Source of the DNA: Octopus vulgaris | Lineage: Eukaryota | Assembly: GCA_951406725.2 (NCBI GenBank) | Contig: OX597820.1 | Location: forward strand, 112,468,001-112,532,000 | DNA: 64,000 bases | Direction: 5' to 3' | Shown here: positions 4,072 through 56,118 of the stretch, piece after piece | Layout: each line of letters opens with the position of its first letter | Numbering within the stretch: position 1 is the first letter of the stretch | Position numbers and translations under genes: made by a program | Notes under the pieces: model-generated | What the model saw: only the letters and a program-made list of their open reading frames with translations | Database searches by the model: none | What the model was told of the DNA's origin: nothing

Positions 4072-7000
4072 GAAATAAGATTAAGATTAATGTAAAAAAT
4101 GAATAACGCTGAAGCAAAGTAACACCAAATATATAGTGCGTGTGTTTTTATTGGCTAAACTAGCAAAATGACCATCCCTAAATACAACAATATCTGTTTC
4201 AACACACGATTTCACATCAAAAATCTTGCAAAACAAATATATATACTTAATTTTTATTTTTTATATTTTATCTTTCATTTTTATTTTAATGAATTCTACA
4301 TCATTAACCAGTTCCTCTTGTAGAAAAGTAACATACTACAACTACTAAAATGTATCTTAACAGAAATAAATGGAGATGTAGGTGTAGGAGTGGCTGTGTG
4401 GTTCATAAGCTTGCTTATGAACCACATGGTTCCGGGTTCAGTCCCACTGCATGGCACCTTGGGCAAGTGTCTTCTGCTATAGCCTTGGGCTGACCAAAGC
4501 CTTGTGAGTGAATTTGGTAGATGGAAGCTGAAAGAAGCCTGTCATATATATGTGTGTGTGTATATATCTATATATATATATGTATGTATGTGTGTCTGTT
4601 TTTGTCCCCCCAACATCGCTTGACAACCAATGCTAGTGTGTTTACATCCCCATAACTTAGCAGTTCCATAAAAGAGACCAATAGAATAAGTACTGGGGTC
4701 GATTTGCTTGACTAAAGGCGGTGCTCCAGCATGGCCACAGTCAAATGACAAGTAAAAAAGTATTAAAAAATGCAGTACCTTTTGACAAGTCACCTGATGA
4801 GATACAGCTGCACATTCAATGCACAACAACTGTTTGTATAGAATCTCACTCAAGAAGCACCAATGCAGACAATTTTTAACGCAATGGCTGCATGCCCCTT
4901 ATGAAAAAGGACACTGAATAGTTATGAAATATTGATAGTGTTACAGTGCCTCCTTTGAACAAGCTGTAGTAACTGACTTTCTATTCCATTCTTTGTATTT
5001 AACCTGACTAACACATAATAAGCCAAGTTTGTTGTTTTTAAACTGGAGTTGTATAGCATGTTACCTTACTGGAATGTTCTGTCTAATCTTGATGTAGGAC
5101 AAAGTGTATTTAATGCACTGATTAACAAACTTTATCAATCAATTAATGAGTTACTTGTATTTTCTATATAAGCCTTATTTATGATAGAGAAACTACTTTT
5201 ATCAAGGTTCCTTGACTGATCCTATATCATTGTTATTATTATTATTAAAGCAGTGAGTTGGCAGAAGCATCAGCATGCTAGGCAAAATGCTTAATGGAAT
5301 TTCTTCCATCTTCATGCTCTGAGTTCAAAGTCGACTTTGCCTTGCATCCTTTCAGGGTCGATGAAATAAGTACCAGTTGAGTACTGGGGCCGATATAATT
5401 GACTTAACCCCTCCCCAAAATTGCTGGACTTATACCAAAATCTGAAATCATCATCATTATTATTATTATTAATATACCATTGTGTGTGTGCATGCATTAG
5501 CCTGCTACCTGTTATTCTCCGGTAACAATTTGTCATGCAAATGCCCAACCAGATTCTGACTGCAAACTACCACAGAGAAAGAAGACCTAAACAAAAACCT
5601 TCACAAGAACCACATCCATTGATAGAATAATCTATCTGGTATGAAATTTGAAATCATAGAAAAGAAGCCATCAAAAGTATTGCAGCAAGTCTTACTGGCT
5701 TCTATGAGAAGTGTGGTGGTCTTGCACTACAAATGTGATTGACTTTTATGAGTGCAGTTGGTATTTTTTTCTGGGATTTCTTTCTTTCTAAAAGTTTAAA
5801 ATTTGCTTTCAAGTTACTCCAAAGCCAAATAAATAAGGTATGAAAGAAATACTAAAATGTAGAAAATATATTCTCATTAAAATGAAAATCCTGGCAAGCT
5901 TGCCAAAAATGTTAATTTTCTTTCAAGTTTTCCCAAATGACTTTAAGCTTAGCTCAAAAGAATGACAGACTGACTTGAAATTCCAGGGTCACCTGCCTTA
6001 CAAATGTACATAACACACACATGCACCTTTTATATATGTGTGTGTGGGGTGGGGGTGGCGTGTGTGTGTGCACGCACGCGTGTGTGATACAAGTGTCACA
6101 ACAAATATATTTATACTAATTATAGTTACACAAAGACTTGATTCTACATACACTTTTCTTTTTCATGTTACCGATAGGACCTGAATTTATGCAGGTTTGT
6201 CAAAATGTTATTTTTGTTTCTCACTGAAGAGAAATATTTTAAAAGCATTAAAATAATTTAACTGCCTCCAGAATTTTTCTTTTTATATATTTTCTTTTAG
6301 TAGACATTTTTTTTTTCTGTTCTCTCTCTCTCTTTTTGCTCTTTAATAAAACTAATCAGTTTACCCAAGAATAGTACAACCATAGCTACTGCTTTTCAAT
6401 TTTTTTTCAACATTTTCCAAAAAACATTACTCACTGAATACATACATCACTGGCAATCTTAAGTAACTTGACTTTTCTTACTGATTTTTTTTCCATGAAA
6501 ATTTTGATGAGTCCTTCATTTTCGAGCATTTGTCAAAGCTTAACTGTTATTACCTTCACATCCCCACCCCACCTTTGTCTTCATCTCTATTGTTATGTAT
6601 CTGATGCTGTACTATTTCAATAACCCTATATTCATCCTAGACCAGCTTCCCATCAAACTGTCAGTCTTCTTAAATATCATGACTCACATGGCCACTGAAA
6701 TGGATCACATGACCCAGCAAATACATCAAACTTGGCAAAACAGGAATATGAAATTGCTCAGCAGAACTGAACAAAGAACCATTGTAATCTTCTTAGCCCC
6801 ACAACCATTCTTTCTTTGTTCCTAGCTGACTGCCAACTATACACTCAAACCATGGCTTATATCACTTTTCTGGTAAACATTCAGGAAATAGATTCAGTGT
6901 CAGTTAACCAGTGAAGTGCTTCATTGTTTATCTGTCCCCAGTTGGTAATGAGATGAACTTGAAAGATCACAAAACCCTCTATGTAAATTCTCTGACCTAA

Positions 7001-13855: not shown

Positions 13856-13965
13856 CAGACTGTGCTTCTTCAACTTTATTAGATGACGTACTTTCTACAG
13901 CAGCATCAACCTGCATTTGTTCACTTGATTCTGCTGCTTGGTTGGAACTTGTGACCTTTGGCATT
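13856..13965 (-). CDS. ARNTL: BMAL1/cycle exon, low-complexity post-PAS linker
   Basis: tctttcag acceptor, gttag donor, 110 nt; phase 2 to 1 exactly bridges the flanking exons; open frame MPKVTSSNQAAESSEQMQVDAAVESTSSNKVEEAQS; no recognisable homology. Confidence 0.8.
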
Positions 13966-14031
13966 CTGAAAGACAATTCATTTGAGAATGGTTTTAGCTG
14001 CTGGAATCATTTAACCTTTTGTTAACTAGCT

Positions 14032-14722
14032 GCCTGCTAACCAGCGCATCGATCAGTGCTTTTCCAGTAGCGCGGCGGCGCCAAAGCCATCGTTGGTAGC
14101 TCTGCATGCGGCCTGGGCTTGCCGTTGCCGCCACTCCCCATTGTGGCCGCGTCCGGCTGCCGCCCCCTCGCGGTGCAGTCGTGACATGGTTGCGGTGTCG
14201 GTTGCAGAGCGGCACTGGTGACTCGGTCGGCTTGGCCCGCATGAGCCCAGCAGTGGCACGCCGTCGCGTCTGGGCCAGTTGGTTGGTAAATGCAGCGCTT
14301 CTTAGAGGGACGGGCGGCAGAAAGCCGCATGAAGCAGAGCAATAACAGGTCTGTGATGCCCTTAGATGTCTGGGGCCGCACGCGCGCAACACTGGAGGTA
14401 TCAGTGGGCGCGTCTCCCTCGGCCCGAGAGGGTCGGGAAACCTCTGAACCACCTCCCGTGATAGGGATCGGGGCCTGGAACCAACCCCGTGAACGAGGAA
14501 TTCCCGGTAGGCGCGGGTCATCAGCCCGCGTCGATCACGTCCATGCCCTTTGTACACACCACCCGTCGTTACTACCAATCGAACGGTCCGGTGAAGTCCT
14601 CGGTTCTGGCTGACGAGTCCGCTTACACGTGGCGGCGTTCCGCACTGTCGTTGGTGCATTCTCTGATGGCCCGGAGAAGACAACCGAACCTGATCGCTTA
14701 CAGGAAGTAAATGTCGTAACAA
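14032..14722 (+). pseudogene. 18S rRNA pseudogene fragment (V7 to just short of the 3' end), antisense within a BMAL1 intron
   Basis: Universal SSU motifs CTTCTTAGAGGGAC, GCAATAACAGGTCTGTGATGCCCTTAGATG, GCCCTTTGTACACACC, GGAAGTAAAxGTCGTAACAA; ~250-nt GC-rich V7 insertion; substitutions at invariant sites (CCGCCC>CCACCC, AAAAGTC>AAATGTC); truncated on both sides; no ITS1. Confidence 0.95.
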
Positions 14723-14766
14723 ATAAAAGTTGTAACTTTTGATGATACAAAATATAGATTATAATC

Positions 14767-14925
14767 TATAATCTATATTTTGTATCTTTTCATTTTTCTT
14801 GCTCACTTACATTCTGGTGTTTGCTAAATTTTCTTGAGAACATACCTTCCTTATTTGTAAGACCATAGTGGATCTTCTTCTAGCATAATGGATGTCCACT
14901 TACAGGTCATCCCTCTTATATGTAT
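14767..14925 (+). mobile_element. 3' part of a Penelope-like terminal repeat (family of the 54.3-54.7 kb element)
   Basis: Aligns by eye to 54513-54680 (shared TTTTCATTTxTCTTGC, TTTTCTTGAGAACA, TAGCATA..GxTGTCCACT, GTCATxCCTCT). Confidence 0.75.
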
Positions 14926-15054
14926 GTAATATAATTTTTTCTGAAACTTCAGATTTTTCAATATGTTAGACTACTGGTTTTAAATTGATATTAAATAAAT
15001 TAATATTCAATTGTTCACCCTTTTTATTTTAAATTTATATATATATATATATAT

Positions 15055-15785
15055 TGTTATATTTCGGAATGGTCATTTTGCCAGTTTAGCCAATAAAAAC
15101 ACAGGCACTATATATTTGGTGTTATTTTGCTTCAGTGTTATTTATTTTTTACATTAATCTTAATCTTATTTCGGCCAGAGTTCTTTCGTCACACTCCTGT
15201 GACCGCATCAGTGGTCCTTTGTTTTCTTCTTTCGTATTTGTGTCTCTCCTTACTAACCGTCAGCCATTTTGTATTTCTATTGTATGTCTTCATTTGCGCA
15301 TGCTTATATCTCTATGTGCGTTTATGTTTAGTTAGTGTGTGTGTGGGGGGGGGGGATGCCTGTAATATTTGTATCTTCTGTTTATATACGTTCATGTAAT
15401 TTGTTTTTGTTGTTGTTTTTGTTTATTCTTATTTTGTTCATGTGTTTACATCCACTTATTATTATCATTACGTATGCTTGTATGTATGTATGTATAACAA
15501 CAATACTAGTAATAATAATAATAATTAAAAAAATCTTTAAAATTAAACAAAAAAAAACTTATATAGTTATTTATTTCTATTTGTTTATTTATCTGTGTGT
15601 TTTATTTATTATGTTTTTGGTTTTGTTTATATTGTAACCAGTTTATGGGGATCCTCTACCGTCATATGTTGTGGTGAGTTCCATTCCAGTTTCCTATTCT
15701 GGCTAGGTTTATTTTCTATTATGTGTGTAGCTTCTGTAATTTGTCTGATTGTTGCATCTGTTCTATAAATTTCTATATCATGTTT
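15055..15785 (-). mobile_element. 5'-truncated Penelope-like element, family A: ORF 3' end, UTR and hammerhead-bearing terminal repeat
   Basis: 15627-15785 translates ...[26 protein letters not shown]..., like the R-x-x-EA-x-x-I...P-x-LN end of PLE GIY-YIG domains; family A repeat at 15055-15340 with a mutated core (CUGAUGC, 15173-15217); flanked by (TA)n on both sides. Confidence 0.75.
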
Positions 15786-51902: not shown

Positions 51903-54438
51903 GCGTACGAACTAGTCATAGCTAGACATGGTTCATGGTAATATACATATTTATACACAATATCACAAGTAATACACAGTAATACGAAAGACATACTTAC
52001 ACACACATACACACTGATACCAACACAAACAGCTTACACATTTAGTAACACACATAAACACATATGCATACCCTTGTACATACAAACATATGAACACACA
52101 TATGTATACATGCAAATAGATAGCTACTAACTGTCAGAGAACATATATACATATATATATATATACACATACAGGCATACGTACATACATACATATATAC
52201 ATACATGCATATATATATGCTTACATATATATATATCCTTGTATGTATATATAATACACACACACACACACACACTCACACACACGCACACACACACGCA
52301 CACACATACACACACACACACACACACATATATACGCATAGTAAGAAATACTTACAGACAGTGCCCTGGAGCTACATGAAAACAAAACATAGCAAAAACA
52401 CGCATGCACACATACACATATACACTCACAGACACATGCACACACAAACACACATACACGCAAACACATGCACACCATCACATTGAGATTTTCATATAAG
52501 AGTGAACAATAATACAAACAGAAATATCAACATAGCTAACAACACACCCCAAAATATATATGCAAGCATATATGCAGACATATCTACACATACAAATATA
52601 TACCAAATGCTCATATATCATACATAGACACTCACATAGACACAGGGAGCCATATAGTAAAACAGAAACACACACACACACACACATGTAGTAATATACT
52701 AAAACACCCAGATACAGTGACACACCACATACCAAAACACACACATATACATATATGTATAATGACATACAAAAACACATACATACGGACATAGATGTAT
52801 TATAATCACATGCAAAACACACATACATGCACTGACATATACAGTAACAGTAAAACCTCACACATACGTAGACGTATTGATGCTTACAAAAACACTCAAA
52901 TACAAACATTAACAGTAAAACACACACATGTAAAAGCAAACACACATATGGACACAAATGGTCACAGTGTAACACACACATAGATATACATACAAATGCA
53001 CATATAAACTGATGAGGTGGGGTGGAGGAGGAAAAGTAGAATGATGGAAGAAAGAAGCAATTATCACCTGTGGTGTTCCTGTCCACCCCACCCCCTGCTA
53101 CTGTCACCCCTCTCTCTCTCTCTCTCTCTCGAATCTCTGCAATAATAGCACTGCCATTTCTGAAACTATCTCCATGCTATATTGCACCTTGTTTAGGTGT
53201 GTGTGTATGTGTATGTGTGTGTGTGTTTGTGTGTGTGTGTGTGGAAATAAAAGAGAAACATTCAGAGGTACATAAGGATAAAAATTATCTGACTTCTCTG
53301 AACACACACATTCACACGCACACACACACACACACACACATGCACATGCACACACACACACACATGCACAAATACATACAAACATAGTCAGAGCTTTGCT
53401 TTTATCTCAAATTAGTGCTTATGATGTGTAATATATACACACAAACACACATATATATACACACAAACACACACACATACATGCATTTATATATGTGTAT
53501 GCATACATGCATGCACACACACACACACATATCATCATCATCGTTTTAACAGTCATTTTTGCATGCTTGGATGGGTTAGACAGAAATTGTTGAAGCAGAT
53601 TTTTTTACAGCAGGATGCCCTTCCTGTTGCCAACCCTCACATGTTTCCAAGTTAGGTAATATTTTCTCCATGCCAAGACATGTTTTCAAGGAAGACTGAA
53701 AATGAAGGACATGGCTTGTAAGTCAGTGACGCTTGACAGAATTGAAGATGACAGGCACATACATATATACATGAACCCATAGAGATACACACCCAAATGT
53801 AAATATGTATGTATACATGTGTATGTGTGTGCGTGTATATATATATATACTCTTTTACTCTTTTACTTGTTTTAGTCATTTTGACTATGGCCATGCTGGA
53901 GCACCGCCTTTAGTCGACCAAATCGACCCCGGGACTTATTCTTTGTAAGCCCAGTACTTATTCTATCGGTCTCTTTTGTTGAACCGCTAAGTGACGGGGA
54001 CGTAAATACACCAGCATCGGTTGTCAAGCAATGCTAGGGGGACAAACACAGACACACAAACACACACACATATATATATATACATATATACGACAGGCTT
54101 CTTTCAGTTTCCATCTACCAAATCCACTCACAAGGCTTTGGTTGGCCCGGGGCTATAGCAGAAGACACTTGCCCAAGATGCCACGCAGTGGGACTGAACC
54201 TGGAACCATGTGGTTGGTTAGCAAGCTACTTACTACACAGCCACTCCTGCGCCTATATATATAATTTATTTAAATTGGCTGTGGTAATTTAACTGCAGAT
54301 TAATTTCCGACCTCAGAGCGCCAAAGTGAAGACATTTGAAAAATACACCCAAATATAATTTGTAGAACTTTATACATGTTCGATTTCGGTTGAGCATTCT
54401 GTATCTAGTTCTGGAAATTGTGTTTTGTAAGTGACAGA

Positions 54439-54511
54439 CTATGCTGATGATCTTGCAGATATTTGCATGTTTATATACGTAAATATTAACAAGTGAAACC
54501 ATGGTACATAG
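54439..54511 (+). ncRNA. Type-I hammerhead ribozyme motif, family B, intact core
   Basis: Stem I CUAUG/CAUAG; CUGAUGA; long stem II (CUUG...CAAG plus extended hairpin); GAAA; palindromic stem III ACCAUGGU; GUA^ cleavage predicted after 54506. Confidence 0.88.
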
Positions 54512-54676
54512 GTAATCGTTTTTTATTTCGTATATTTTCATTTGTCTTGCATATCTTTACATTTTGGCATTTTGCTGAGATTTTTTTCTTGAGAACACAT
54601 TCTTCGTGGTAATGACAATTTTACGTCTATGTTTAGCATATAGGGTGTCCACTGTAGTCGTCATTCCTCTAAATTT

Positions 54677-55470: not shown

Positions 55471-55515
<45 letters not shown>

Positions 55516-55536
55516 TACGAAATAAAAAACGATTAC

Positions 55537-55609
55537 CTATGTACCATGGTTTCACTTGTTAATATTTACGTATATAAACATGCAAATATCTGCAAGATCA
55601 TCAGCATAG
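55537..55609 (-). ncRNA. Type-I hammerhead ribozyme motif, family B, identical inverted copy on the BMAL1 sense strand
   Basis: Reverse complement of 54439-54511. Confidence 0.88.
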
Positions 55610-56118
55610 TCTGTCACTTACAAAACACAATTTCCAGAACTAGATACAGAATGCTCAACCGAAATCGAACATGTATAAAGTTCTACAAATTATATTTGGG
55701 TGTATTTTTCAAATGTCTTCACTATATCATCATCGTTTAACATCCACTTTCCATGCTAGCATGGGTTGGACAGTTTGACTATGGGCTGGCGAACCAGATG
55801 GCTGCACCAGGCTCCAGTCTTGATCTGGCAGAGTTTCTACAGCTGGATGCCATTCCTAACGCCAACCACTCTGAGAGTGTAGTGGGTGCTTTTACGTACC
55901 ACCGGCACGGGGGCCAGTCAGGCGGTACTGGCAACGACCTCGCTCAAATTTTTTTTTGTTACACATGCCAACGGCACAGGTGCCAGTAAGGTGTTGCTGG
56001 TAATGATCCCGCTTGAATGGTGCCTCCTACATGCCACCGGCATGGAAGCCAGTTAGCCGCTCTGGCAACAATCATGCTCAGATGGTGCTCTAAACACCCT
56101 ACTAGCACAGGGCACAAG

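What the first reader, a model, noticed from the sequence alone, without database searches (positions are those of the whole stretch)
14032..14925. 18S rRNA fragment fused through a snap-back hairpin to a PLE repeat: possible Penelope-made rRNA chimera
Seen: the 18S piece stops at ...GTCGTAACAA (14722), about 30 nt short of the mature end. It is followed by a 7-bp hairpin (14725-14740), a perfect 20-bp/3-nt-loop hairpin (14744-14786), and then sequence homologous to the family B repeat, in the same orientation, starting only about 10 nt downstream of where that family's hammerhead is predicted to cut. Established: template switching yields RNA-retroelement chimeras (U6-L1 type), and PLE insertions often carry inverted 5' ends. 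Inference: PLE reverse transcriptase copied a ribozyme-cleaved RNA and jumped onto 18S rRNA, or end-joining repair captured rDNA during the insertion.
Basis: partly seen in the sequence, partly recalled or inferred. Interest (0 to 1): 0.72.

Follow-up and report, generated by a model that had tools for sequence, protein, structure and literature searches.

The report
rRNA captured by Penelope-type insertion
A decayed 691-base copy of the end of 18S ribosomal RNA is joined to a jumping repeat whose family carries a predicted self-cutting RNA, and the two were likely written into the genome in one copying event; similar rRNA-plus-retroelement fusions recur in this genome.

Summary
The junction is real: a short-read contig from a separately labelled organism spans it. 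The 18S piece (14032-14722) is a retrocopy. Eleven of 17 dispersed pieces found without selecting on their end stop in the same 12-nt linker before helix 45. Repeat B (14769-15035) is a non-autonomous 540-nt hammerhead repeat with Penelope-type insertion anatomy; no protein-coding partner was found. Both parts have the same age (4.1% and 4.2% non-CpG divergence). The fillers are short re-copies of the adjoining ends, and the '7-bp hairpin' is a re-copy of the 18S end. Elsewhere in the genome, 7 of 77 rRNA pieces sit directly before SINE starts (0.2 expected). One abuts B in the same order (L305), and one sits between two inverted arms of another Penelope-type end (L208). One-event capture is the best reading (0.6). 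Sequential insertion at one TA tract remains possible (0.22) because no empty site was obtained. The ribozyme-cut step is unsupported, and which enzyme copied the 18S is unknown. The scan earlier noted an 18S-LINE chimera in another genome. The locus is a dead insertion; the recurrent pattern is the interesting part.

The parts
13856..13965 (-). Putative 110-nt host exon (AG before, GT after, open frame); the insert lies about 65 nt upstream of its acceptor, antisense to the gene
   Evidence: Single copy in the genome; open frame; boundaries read; no RNA evidence
14020..14031 (+). Left filler or microhomology: 10/11 match to the start of the 18S piece, then one extra base
   Evidence: fraction of 5737 window stretches scoring as well: 0.0002
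14032..14722 (+). 5'-truncated 18S rRNA retrocopy (array positions 1956-2664 of 2698), ending in the helix 44/45 linker
   Evidence: non-CpG divergence 19/467, CpG transitions 46/224
14723..14736 (+). Direct re-copy of 13-14 nt from the end of the 18S piece, in the rDNA version that predates the window copy's own A>T change
   Evidence: 12/13 match, null fraction 0.001 of 3110; organism E contig has G at 14723, which extends the match (one contig of depth 3.9, may be an error)
14737..14743 (+). 7-nt filler of unresolved origin (snap-back on the re-copy, end of a possible target duplication, U tail, or remnant of B -6..-1)
   Evidence: Sequence; fold; target-duplication match not significant, null 0.13
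14744..14761 (-). 18-nt inverted copy of the first bases of repeat B (short left arm)
14762..14768 (+). 7-nt direct duplication of the start of repeat B (centre of the hairpin)
   Evidence: Sequence
14769..15035 (+). Repeat B forward arm, from 6 nt below the family's predicted hammerhead cut to the family's usual 3' end; this copy lacks the ribozyme
   Evidence: 4353 first-look candidates, 87-92% identity among the 40 scored; non-CpG divergence 11/259
15036..15054 (.). (TA)n tract, the usual target at B's 3' end
15055..15350 (-). Separate copy of repeat family A with a hammerhead-like core, ending in the same TA tract; independent insertion

Best explanation
This is a dead chimeric retro-insertion in which an 18S rRNA fragment was likely reverse-transcribed onto the end of a hammerhead-family repeat's cDNA while that repeat was being inserted at a TA tract. 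Shown: the anatomy, the equal ages, the re-copied fillers, the 18S end hot spot and the sister chimeras. Inferred order on the bottom strand: a Penelope-like protein primes in the TA tract and copies B RNA to near its 5' end. The cDNA stutters 7 nt and folds back for 18 nt. It then lands on 18S RNA in the single-stranded linker before helix 45, stutters 14 nt, copies about 700 nt, stutters 11 nt and is joined to the left target. The enzyme that copied the 18S (PLE RT, a LINE RT, or a repair polymerase acting on the open intermediate) is not determined. A ribozyme-cut template is not needed.
For: Ages: 18S 19/467 = 4.1% (95% CI 2.5-6.3), B 11/259 = 4.2% (2.1-7.5), Fisher P = 1.0. RNA origin: 11 of 17 pieces from the search that did not select on the end stop at 2654-2665; 17 of 27 overall, 0 of 27 inside helix 45; four 28S pieces stop at the mature 3' end. 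Three short direct re-copies in one structure; re-copies of 7 nt or more are seen at only a few of the 40 other pieces' ends. Sister cases: 5 of 40 pieces lie 0-8 nt before a SINE start, 0.10 expected, 0 on the mirror side, and 2 of 37 in two later sets, 0.096 expected, P 0.004. L128, L198 and L215 split one pre-existing repeat as a unit. L208: coeval 28S piece between two inverted arms of a Penelope-type end. L305: 28S piece, filler, trimmed inverted B arm, forward arm, TA tract, the same order as here; chance 0.004-0.017. Junction shared with organism E.
Against: No empty site was obtained. No target duplication flanks the whole insert, and no TA remnant lies left of the 18S, although only 11 of 30 B insertions have one either. 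A 9/10 gapped repeat flanks the 18S alone (null 0.13). The confidence intervals on age are wide. None of the other 16 hot-spot 18S pieces abuts B, so the 18S end needs no PLE to explain it. 0 of 83 other B loci hold rDNA. The second set gave 0 of 17 SINE fusions. In L305 the upstream 28S part is 9.2% diverged against 3.5-4.3% for B, so that case may be sequential. The usual inverted B arm starts at 150-169, which points to priming from target DNA, whereas this arm starts at 18.
Confidence: 0.6

Rival explanations
1. Two separate insertions at the edge of one TA tract: an ordinary 18S retrocopy, with a 10-bp target duplication, went in first and B later inserted 2 nt further right.
For: Gapped 9/10 repeat either side of the 18S. 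Family A used the same tract independently. Several rRNA pieces border microsatellites. Each partner shows its family's usual end marks: L066 re-copies its 18S end with no B, and 24 of 29 other B copies have an inverted arm.
Against: The repeat is not significant (null 0.13 of 1745) and is separated from the 18S start by about 11 nt. Ages are equal. The left arm does not start at B's usual second priming site. Random adjacency is about 0.004-0.017 per 77 pieces (shared microsatellite targeting is not modelled and would raise it).
Confidence: 0.22
2. B first made a long palindrome (as in L027 and L036). A later break in the left arm was patched with 18S cDNA by alternative end joining, and the rest of the arm was lost.
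For: L027 and L036 are palindromes centred at the same place with arms of about 190 nt. Direct and snap-back fillers fit synthesis-dependent end joining (papers seen as search listings only). L052 and L272 show 18S pieces patched into existing repeats.
Against: No remainder of the arm lies left of the 18S; ages are equal; it needs two rare events.
Confidence: 0.12
3. A piece of rDNA was captured as DNA during repair of the insertion.
For: Dispersed DNA-level rDNA pieces that run into ITS1 and spacers exist in this genome.
Against: The end falls in the 13-nt hot spot shared by 17 of 27 free pieces, while helix 45 has 0; DNA breaks would not cluster this way (inference).
Confidence: 0.03
4. RtcB ligated a cut 18S fragment to the 5'-OH end of ribozyme-cleaved B RNA before reverse transcription, as for U6/L1.
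For: RtcB needs a 2',3'-cyclic phosphate and a 5'-OH (PMC6789731, passages); hammerhead cleavage gives a 5'-OH (established knowledge); four T follow the 18S re-copy and B starts near the cut.
Against: Ligation predicts a clean joint at B -6; instead 46 nt of re-copied and inverted filler intervene and bases -6..-1 are absent or doubtful.
Confidence: 0.03

Closest known systems
[quoted passage not shown]
   Same: rRNA fragment 5' of the retroelement, mostly in the same sense (83% of 18 cases there), a few hundred nt long, recurrent breakpoints in the rRNA
   Different: Here the RNA is 18S (that paper's main text has no '18S' occurrence; supplements not seen), the partner is a non-autonomous hammerhead repeat, an inverted arm and fillers intervene, and no target duplication or empty site is shown
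U6/L1 chimeras formed by RtcB ligation (PMC6789731; passages read)
   Same: Cellular RNA joined 5' of a retroelement in the same sense, with a few T near the joint
   Different: U6 joints are clean; this joint carries templated direct and inverted re-copies
Tailless retropseudogenes (PMC5322556; passages read)
   Same: Retrocopies ending at hot spots in single-stranded regions of structured RNAs
   Different: Only 2 human 18S cases were reported there, tied to L1; here 17 loci share one 18S hot spot and gapped target duplications are mostly not detectable
Penelope-like elements and metazoan non-LTR retrozymes (PMC8557442 passages; PMC11167929 parts 1-2 of 4; PMC7229834 passages; bioRxiv 10.64898/2026.07.22.740005 part 1 of 5)
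   Same: Type I hammerhead-like core, partial tandems, adjacent inverted 5'-truncated copy, two preferred 3' end points, AT-rich or microsatellite targets
   Different: B's monomer is 540 nt (retrozymes about 300 nt), no linked ORF was found, cleavage and circular RNA are untested, and capture of rRNA was not found in the passages read

Membership tests
RNA-retroelement chimera (U6/L1, 28S/L1 type) | Cellular RNA piece lies 5' of the element in the same sense | tested here: met
   an 18-nt inverted arm and fillers lie between
RNA-retroelement chimera (U6/L1, 28S/L1 type) | Both parts have the same age | tested here: met
   4.1% vs 4.2% non-CpG, wide intervals
RNA-retroelement chimera (U6/L1, 28S/L1 type) | One target-site duplication flanks the whole insert | tested here: not met
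   The left flank does not repeat the TA tract right of B; a left TA remnant is also missing in 19 of 30 B insertions
RNA-retroelement chimera (U6/L1, 28S/L1 type) | Both parts absent together at an orthologous empty site | tested here: inconclusive
   Organism E carries both junctions and organism B the left one; the distant organism C gave no contig over the site
Penelope-like element (repeat B) | Type I hammerhead motif in the terminal repeat | tested here: met
   Core motifs conserved; 6 of 12 pairs change on both sides, mostly through one older relative; Rfam finds none in 8 loci; cleavage not tested
Penelope-like element (repeat B) | Partial tandems and adjacent inverted 5'-truncated copy | tested here: met
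   540-nt wrap-around copies; inverted arm in 24 of 29 other copies, several from one subfamily
Penelope-like element (repeat B) | ORF with RT and GIY-YIG endonuclease | tested here: not met
   0 of 30 GIY-YIG loci carry B (30 of 6136 candidates); no linked ORF in 83 B loci, one separate fragment about 1 kb from L033
Metazoan non-LTR retrozyme (repeat B) | Non-coding, low-GC repeat unit with a type I hammerhead, in tandem | tested here: met
   mostly about one unit per locus, few longer
Metazoan non-LTR retrozyme (repeat B) | Monomer of about 300 nt | tested here: not met
   540 nt against about 300 nt in PMC7229834
Metazoan non-LTR retrozyme (repeat B) | Self-cleavage and circular monomer RNA | not testable with these tools
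   Needs bench work
Tailless retropseudogene (18S piece) | 3' end at a recurrent internal site, no poly(A) tail | tested here: met
   17 of 27 at 2654-2666
Tailless retropseudogene (18S piece) | Own target-site duplication | tested here: inconclusive
   9/10 gapped match, null 0.13

The most novel reading that the evidence does not exclude
Penelope-type reverse transcriptases jump onto abundant host RNAs when they run out of template, so PLE and retrozyme insertions capture rRNA at their 5' joints (this locus, L305, L208). The shared 18S end point marks the first entry site upstream of helix 45, or a natural truncated 18S species in the germ line.
Probability: 0.35. Interest if true: 0.7.

Novelty: new variant of a known kind. 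Interest (0 to 1): 0.5.

Why it matters
How PLE insertions finish at their 5' end is described as still undefined (PMC8557442, passages read). Chimeras of this kind are fossils of that step. If PLE-type insertions capture rRNA, the U6/L1-type chimera pathway extends to the telomerase-related class, and purified PLE protein (PMC11167929) makes it directly testable. The sharp 18S end hot spot also records which part of 18S RNA is open to reverse transcriptases in the germ line. The locus itself is a decayed intronic insertion with no sign of function.

Tried and rejected
Rfam scan for the hammerhead in 8 B loci: only microsatellite-driven hits. Search for an autonomous partner of B: none in 30 GIY-YIG loci or 83 B loci; PF26215 is not in that library. 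Empty site: organism C contigs do not cover 13888-13999 or the filler, which proves nothing; a single-copy-depth organism C contig at the 18S start could not be tied to this locus and was set aside. Pile-up of B 5' ends at the predicted cut: not seen. Target duplication around the 18S: not significant. Match of the hot spot to published 18S decay intermediates: human intermediates lie at 1682-1685 and 1809-1810 (bioRxiv 10.64898/2026.04.26.720784, passages), while the hot spot corresponds to about 1825-1837 by counting from the 3' end (human length recalled), so no match. ARAGORN finds no tRNA in the six SINE loci, so 'SINE' rests on copy number, a fixed 5' start and short length. Pfam gives no hit for the ORF end upstream of family C. 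Rows dropped: 27 of 69 rDNA pieces by fixed rules (length 30-1100, inside mature rRNA, next 100 nt under 58% GC), then L205 (followed by rDNA-like sequence), and the window for the SINE count; L121's end was trimmed by hand by 13 nt. My notebook says 22 of 30 inverted arms; the recount is 24 of 29 non-window copies.

Full report
OBSERVATION. Bases 14032-14722 match 18S rRNA (Rfam) and are 625/709 identical to the tandem rDNA array on C20. On that array the piece covers positions 1956-2664 of an 18S ending at 2698, so it stops 34 nt short, at the base of helix 45. The 20-bp hairpin at 14744-14786 is perfect. The repeat that follows runs from 14769 to 15035 and ends in (TA)n. It has 4353 first-look candidates in the genome, and the 40 scored are 87-92% identical. 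One contig of organism E spans 14653-14816 with 6 differences and no gap. Contigs of organisms B and E span the left junction. The junction is therefore not an assembly artefact and predates the split from organism E. A putative 110-nt exon on the minus strand ends about 65 nt from the insert.

WHAT REPEAT B IS. B is a 540-nt unit that wraps around in partial tandems. Copies that extend upstream carry a type I hammerhead-like core with a two-pair stem III. Six of 12 named pairs change on both sides across 15 rows, mostly through an older relative at window 54433-54530. Rfam does not detect it and cleavage is untested. The predicted cut is 6 nt upstream of 14769. B arms end at two preferred points, about 150-169 and 265-285. 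Of 29 other copies found by their 3' part, 24 carry an inverted arm at the 5' truncation, several of them from one subfamily. This is the insertion anatomy described for PLEs (PMC8557442, passages; PMC11167929, parts 1-2 of 4). The genome holds many GIY-YIG ORFs, some in 781-aa open frames. None of 30 such loci carries B, and none of 83 B loci has a linked ORF. B therefore works like a non-autonomous PLE or retrozyme, with its partner unidentified.

THE RIBOZYME STEP IS NOT SUPPORTED. Forward arms start at scattered places: 5 of 30 upstream of the cut, 5 at 0..10 (one is the window), 20 further down. Second arms end within -8..+10 in 2 of 25 cases. In vitro the anole PLE used mainly uncleaved RNA (PMC11167929).

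THE 18S PIECE IS A RETROCOPY. I kept 42 of 69 dispersed rDNA pieces by fixed rules and dropped one more. Of 27 free 18S pieces, 17 end at 2654-2666, none at 2667-2694, 5 at 2695-2702 (two of these may run into old ITS1) and 5 upstream. The pattern searches could only find pieces that reach 2655 or 2662. The set, which did not select on the end although it favours long overlaps, gives 11 of 17. Four 28S pieces stop at the mature 3' end. Such clustering fits RNA templates, not DNA breaks (inference). A likely reason, from recalled knowledge and untested: dimethylated adenosines in helix 45 block reverse transcriptases that enter at the very end, so the A-rich linker upstream is the first productive entry. 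The published human decay intermediates lie elsewhere.

THE JUNCTIONS. It keeps the ancestral base where the main copy later changed. Organism E has G at 14723, which extends the match (one low-depth contig). The left flank ends in a 10/11 match to the 18S start (0.0002 of 5737). B begins with a 7-nt duplication and an 18-nt inverted copy of itself. Seven bases (14737-14743) stay unexplained. A 9/10 gapped repeat either side of the 18S could be a target duplication but is not significant (0.13 of 1745). Such fillers fit either a stuttering reverse transcriptase or synthesis-dependent end joining (papers seen only as listings).

AGE. Non-CpG divergence is 19/467 (4.1%) for the 18S against the array and 11/259 (4.2%) for B against the majority of 45 copies chosen for likeness to the window. 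Intervals are 2.5-6.3% and 2.1-7.5%. The 88% versus 92% raw identities reflect CpG decay (46 of 224 sites).

SISTER CASES. Five of 40 free rRNA pieces lie 0-8 nt before the natural 5' start of two abundant SINE-like families on the same strand (0.10 expected, none on the mirror side). Those families were picked after seeing the flanks. Two later, unfiltered sets gave 0 of 17 and 2 of 20, together 2 of 37 against 0.096 expected (P 0.004). Three are single events by their flanks: L128 splits one (GATA)n tract, L198 splits a copy of another SINE, and L215 lies in a short duplication inside a SINE. For PLE-type partners, L208 holds a 416-nt 28S piece between two head-to-head 5'-truncated arms of another hammerhead family (C); the arms differ from the family majority at 4/112 and 3/91 sites and the 28S is 4.0% diverged. 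Family C follows a GIY-YIG-like ORF end in L272 (Atlas score 0.97 to clusters with GIY-YIG on 15-19% of members; no Pfam hit). L305 shows a 28S piece, a 12-nt AT filler, a trimmed inverted B arm, a forward arm and a TA tract, the same order as the window; random chance is 0.004-0.017 for 77 pieces. Its upstream 28S part is more diverged (9.2%) than its B arms (3.5-4.3%), so it may be sequential. Against generality: 0 of 83 other B loci hold rDNA and no other hot-spot 18S piece abuts B.

MECHANISM. Best reading (0.6): one event in which B's cDNA, after stuttering and folding back, continued on 18S RNA and was then joined to the left target. The anatomy, ages, fillers, hot spot and sister cases are shown. 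The order of steps and the enzyme are inferred. Rivals: two insertions at one TA edge (0.22), later patching of a broken B palindrome with 18S cDNA (0.12), DNA capture (0.03), RtcB ligation (0.03). The empty site would decide and could not be obtained.

COMPARISON AND NOVELTY. It works like the 28S/L1 and U6/L1 chimeras but does not meet their target-duplication criterion, so membership is not claimed. I found no paper on rRNA capture by PLE or retrozyme insertions in searches of an open-access library. Subscription papers and preprint supplements were not seen, and the 28S/L1 supplements may bear on 18S cases. Earlier scan notes report an 18S-L2 chimera in another genome and a U6-RTE chimera in this one (unchecked). 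Verdict: a new variant of a known kind; a dead locus, but part of a recurrent and testable pattern. Interest 0.5.

Noticed in passing
L128, L198, L215, L057, L209, L301, L288 (G000, various contigs): rRNA pieces fused to the 5' start of two abundant SINE-like families; three split a pre-existing repeat as one unit
   Followed up: yes
L208 (G000:C15:2150635-2151030): 28S piece at the centre of an inverted pair of family C hammerhead arms, coeval with them; the clearest rRNA capture in a PLE-type insertion seen here
   Followed up: yes
L305 (G000:C27:12339356-12339589) and L298: 28S pieces abutting the outer end of an inverted arm of B (L305) or of an older B relative (L298)
   Followed up: partly
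L272 and L273 (G000:C6:7703010 and 7718560): Young (99%) antisense 18S piece inside a family C copy with a 6-nt microhomology, present twice 15 kb apart
   Followed up: partly
L287, L288, L289, L297, L300, L302: Six of 20 28S pieces end at array positions 6583-6585, just before an AU-rich loop that may be the 28S hidden break (recalled); part of this may be an alignment break in a fast-evolving loop
   Followed up: no
window 54325-54537 and 55511-55723: A 213-bp, 100% identical inverted repeat from an older B relative whose forward arm is only about 70% like B; the perfect identity suggests recent conversion or an assembly effect
   Followed up: no
L078, L080, L086, L088, L090, L092, L095, L104: A B subfamily that propagates a fixed inverted junction (forward from about 86, inverted 72-152) with shared extra upstream sequence
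   Followed up: no
L181 (G000:C5:7247002-7247607): 632-nt 28S piece, 100% identical to the array, ending at the mature 3' end, with an inverted re-copy at its 5' junction: a very young retrocopy
   Followed up: no
G000: Many copies of a GIY-YIG ORF in 781-aa open frames with identical scores, suggesting a recently active PLE family
   Followed up: no
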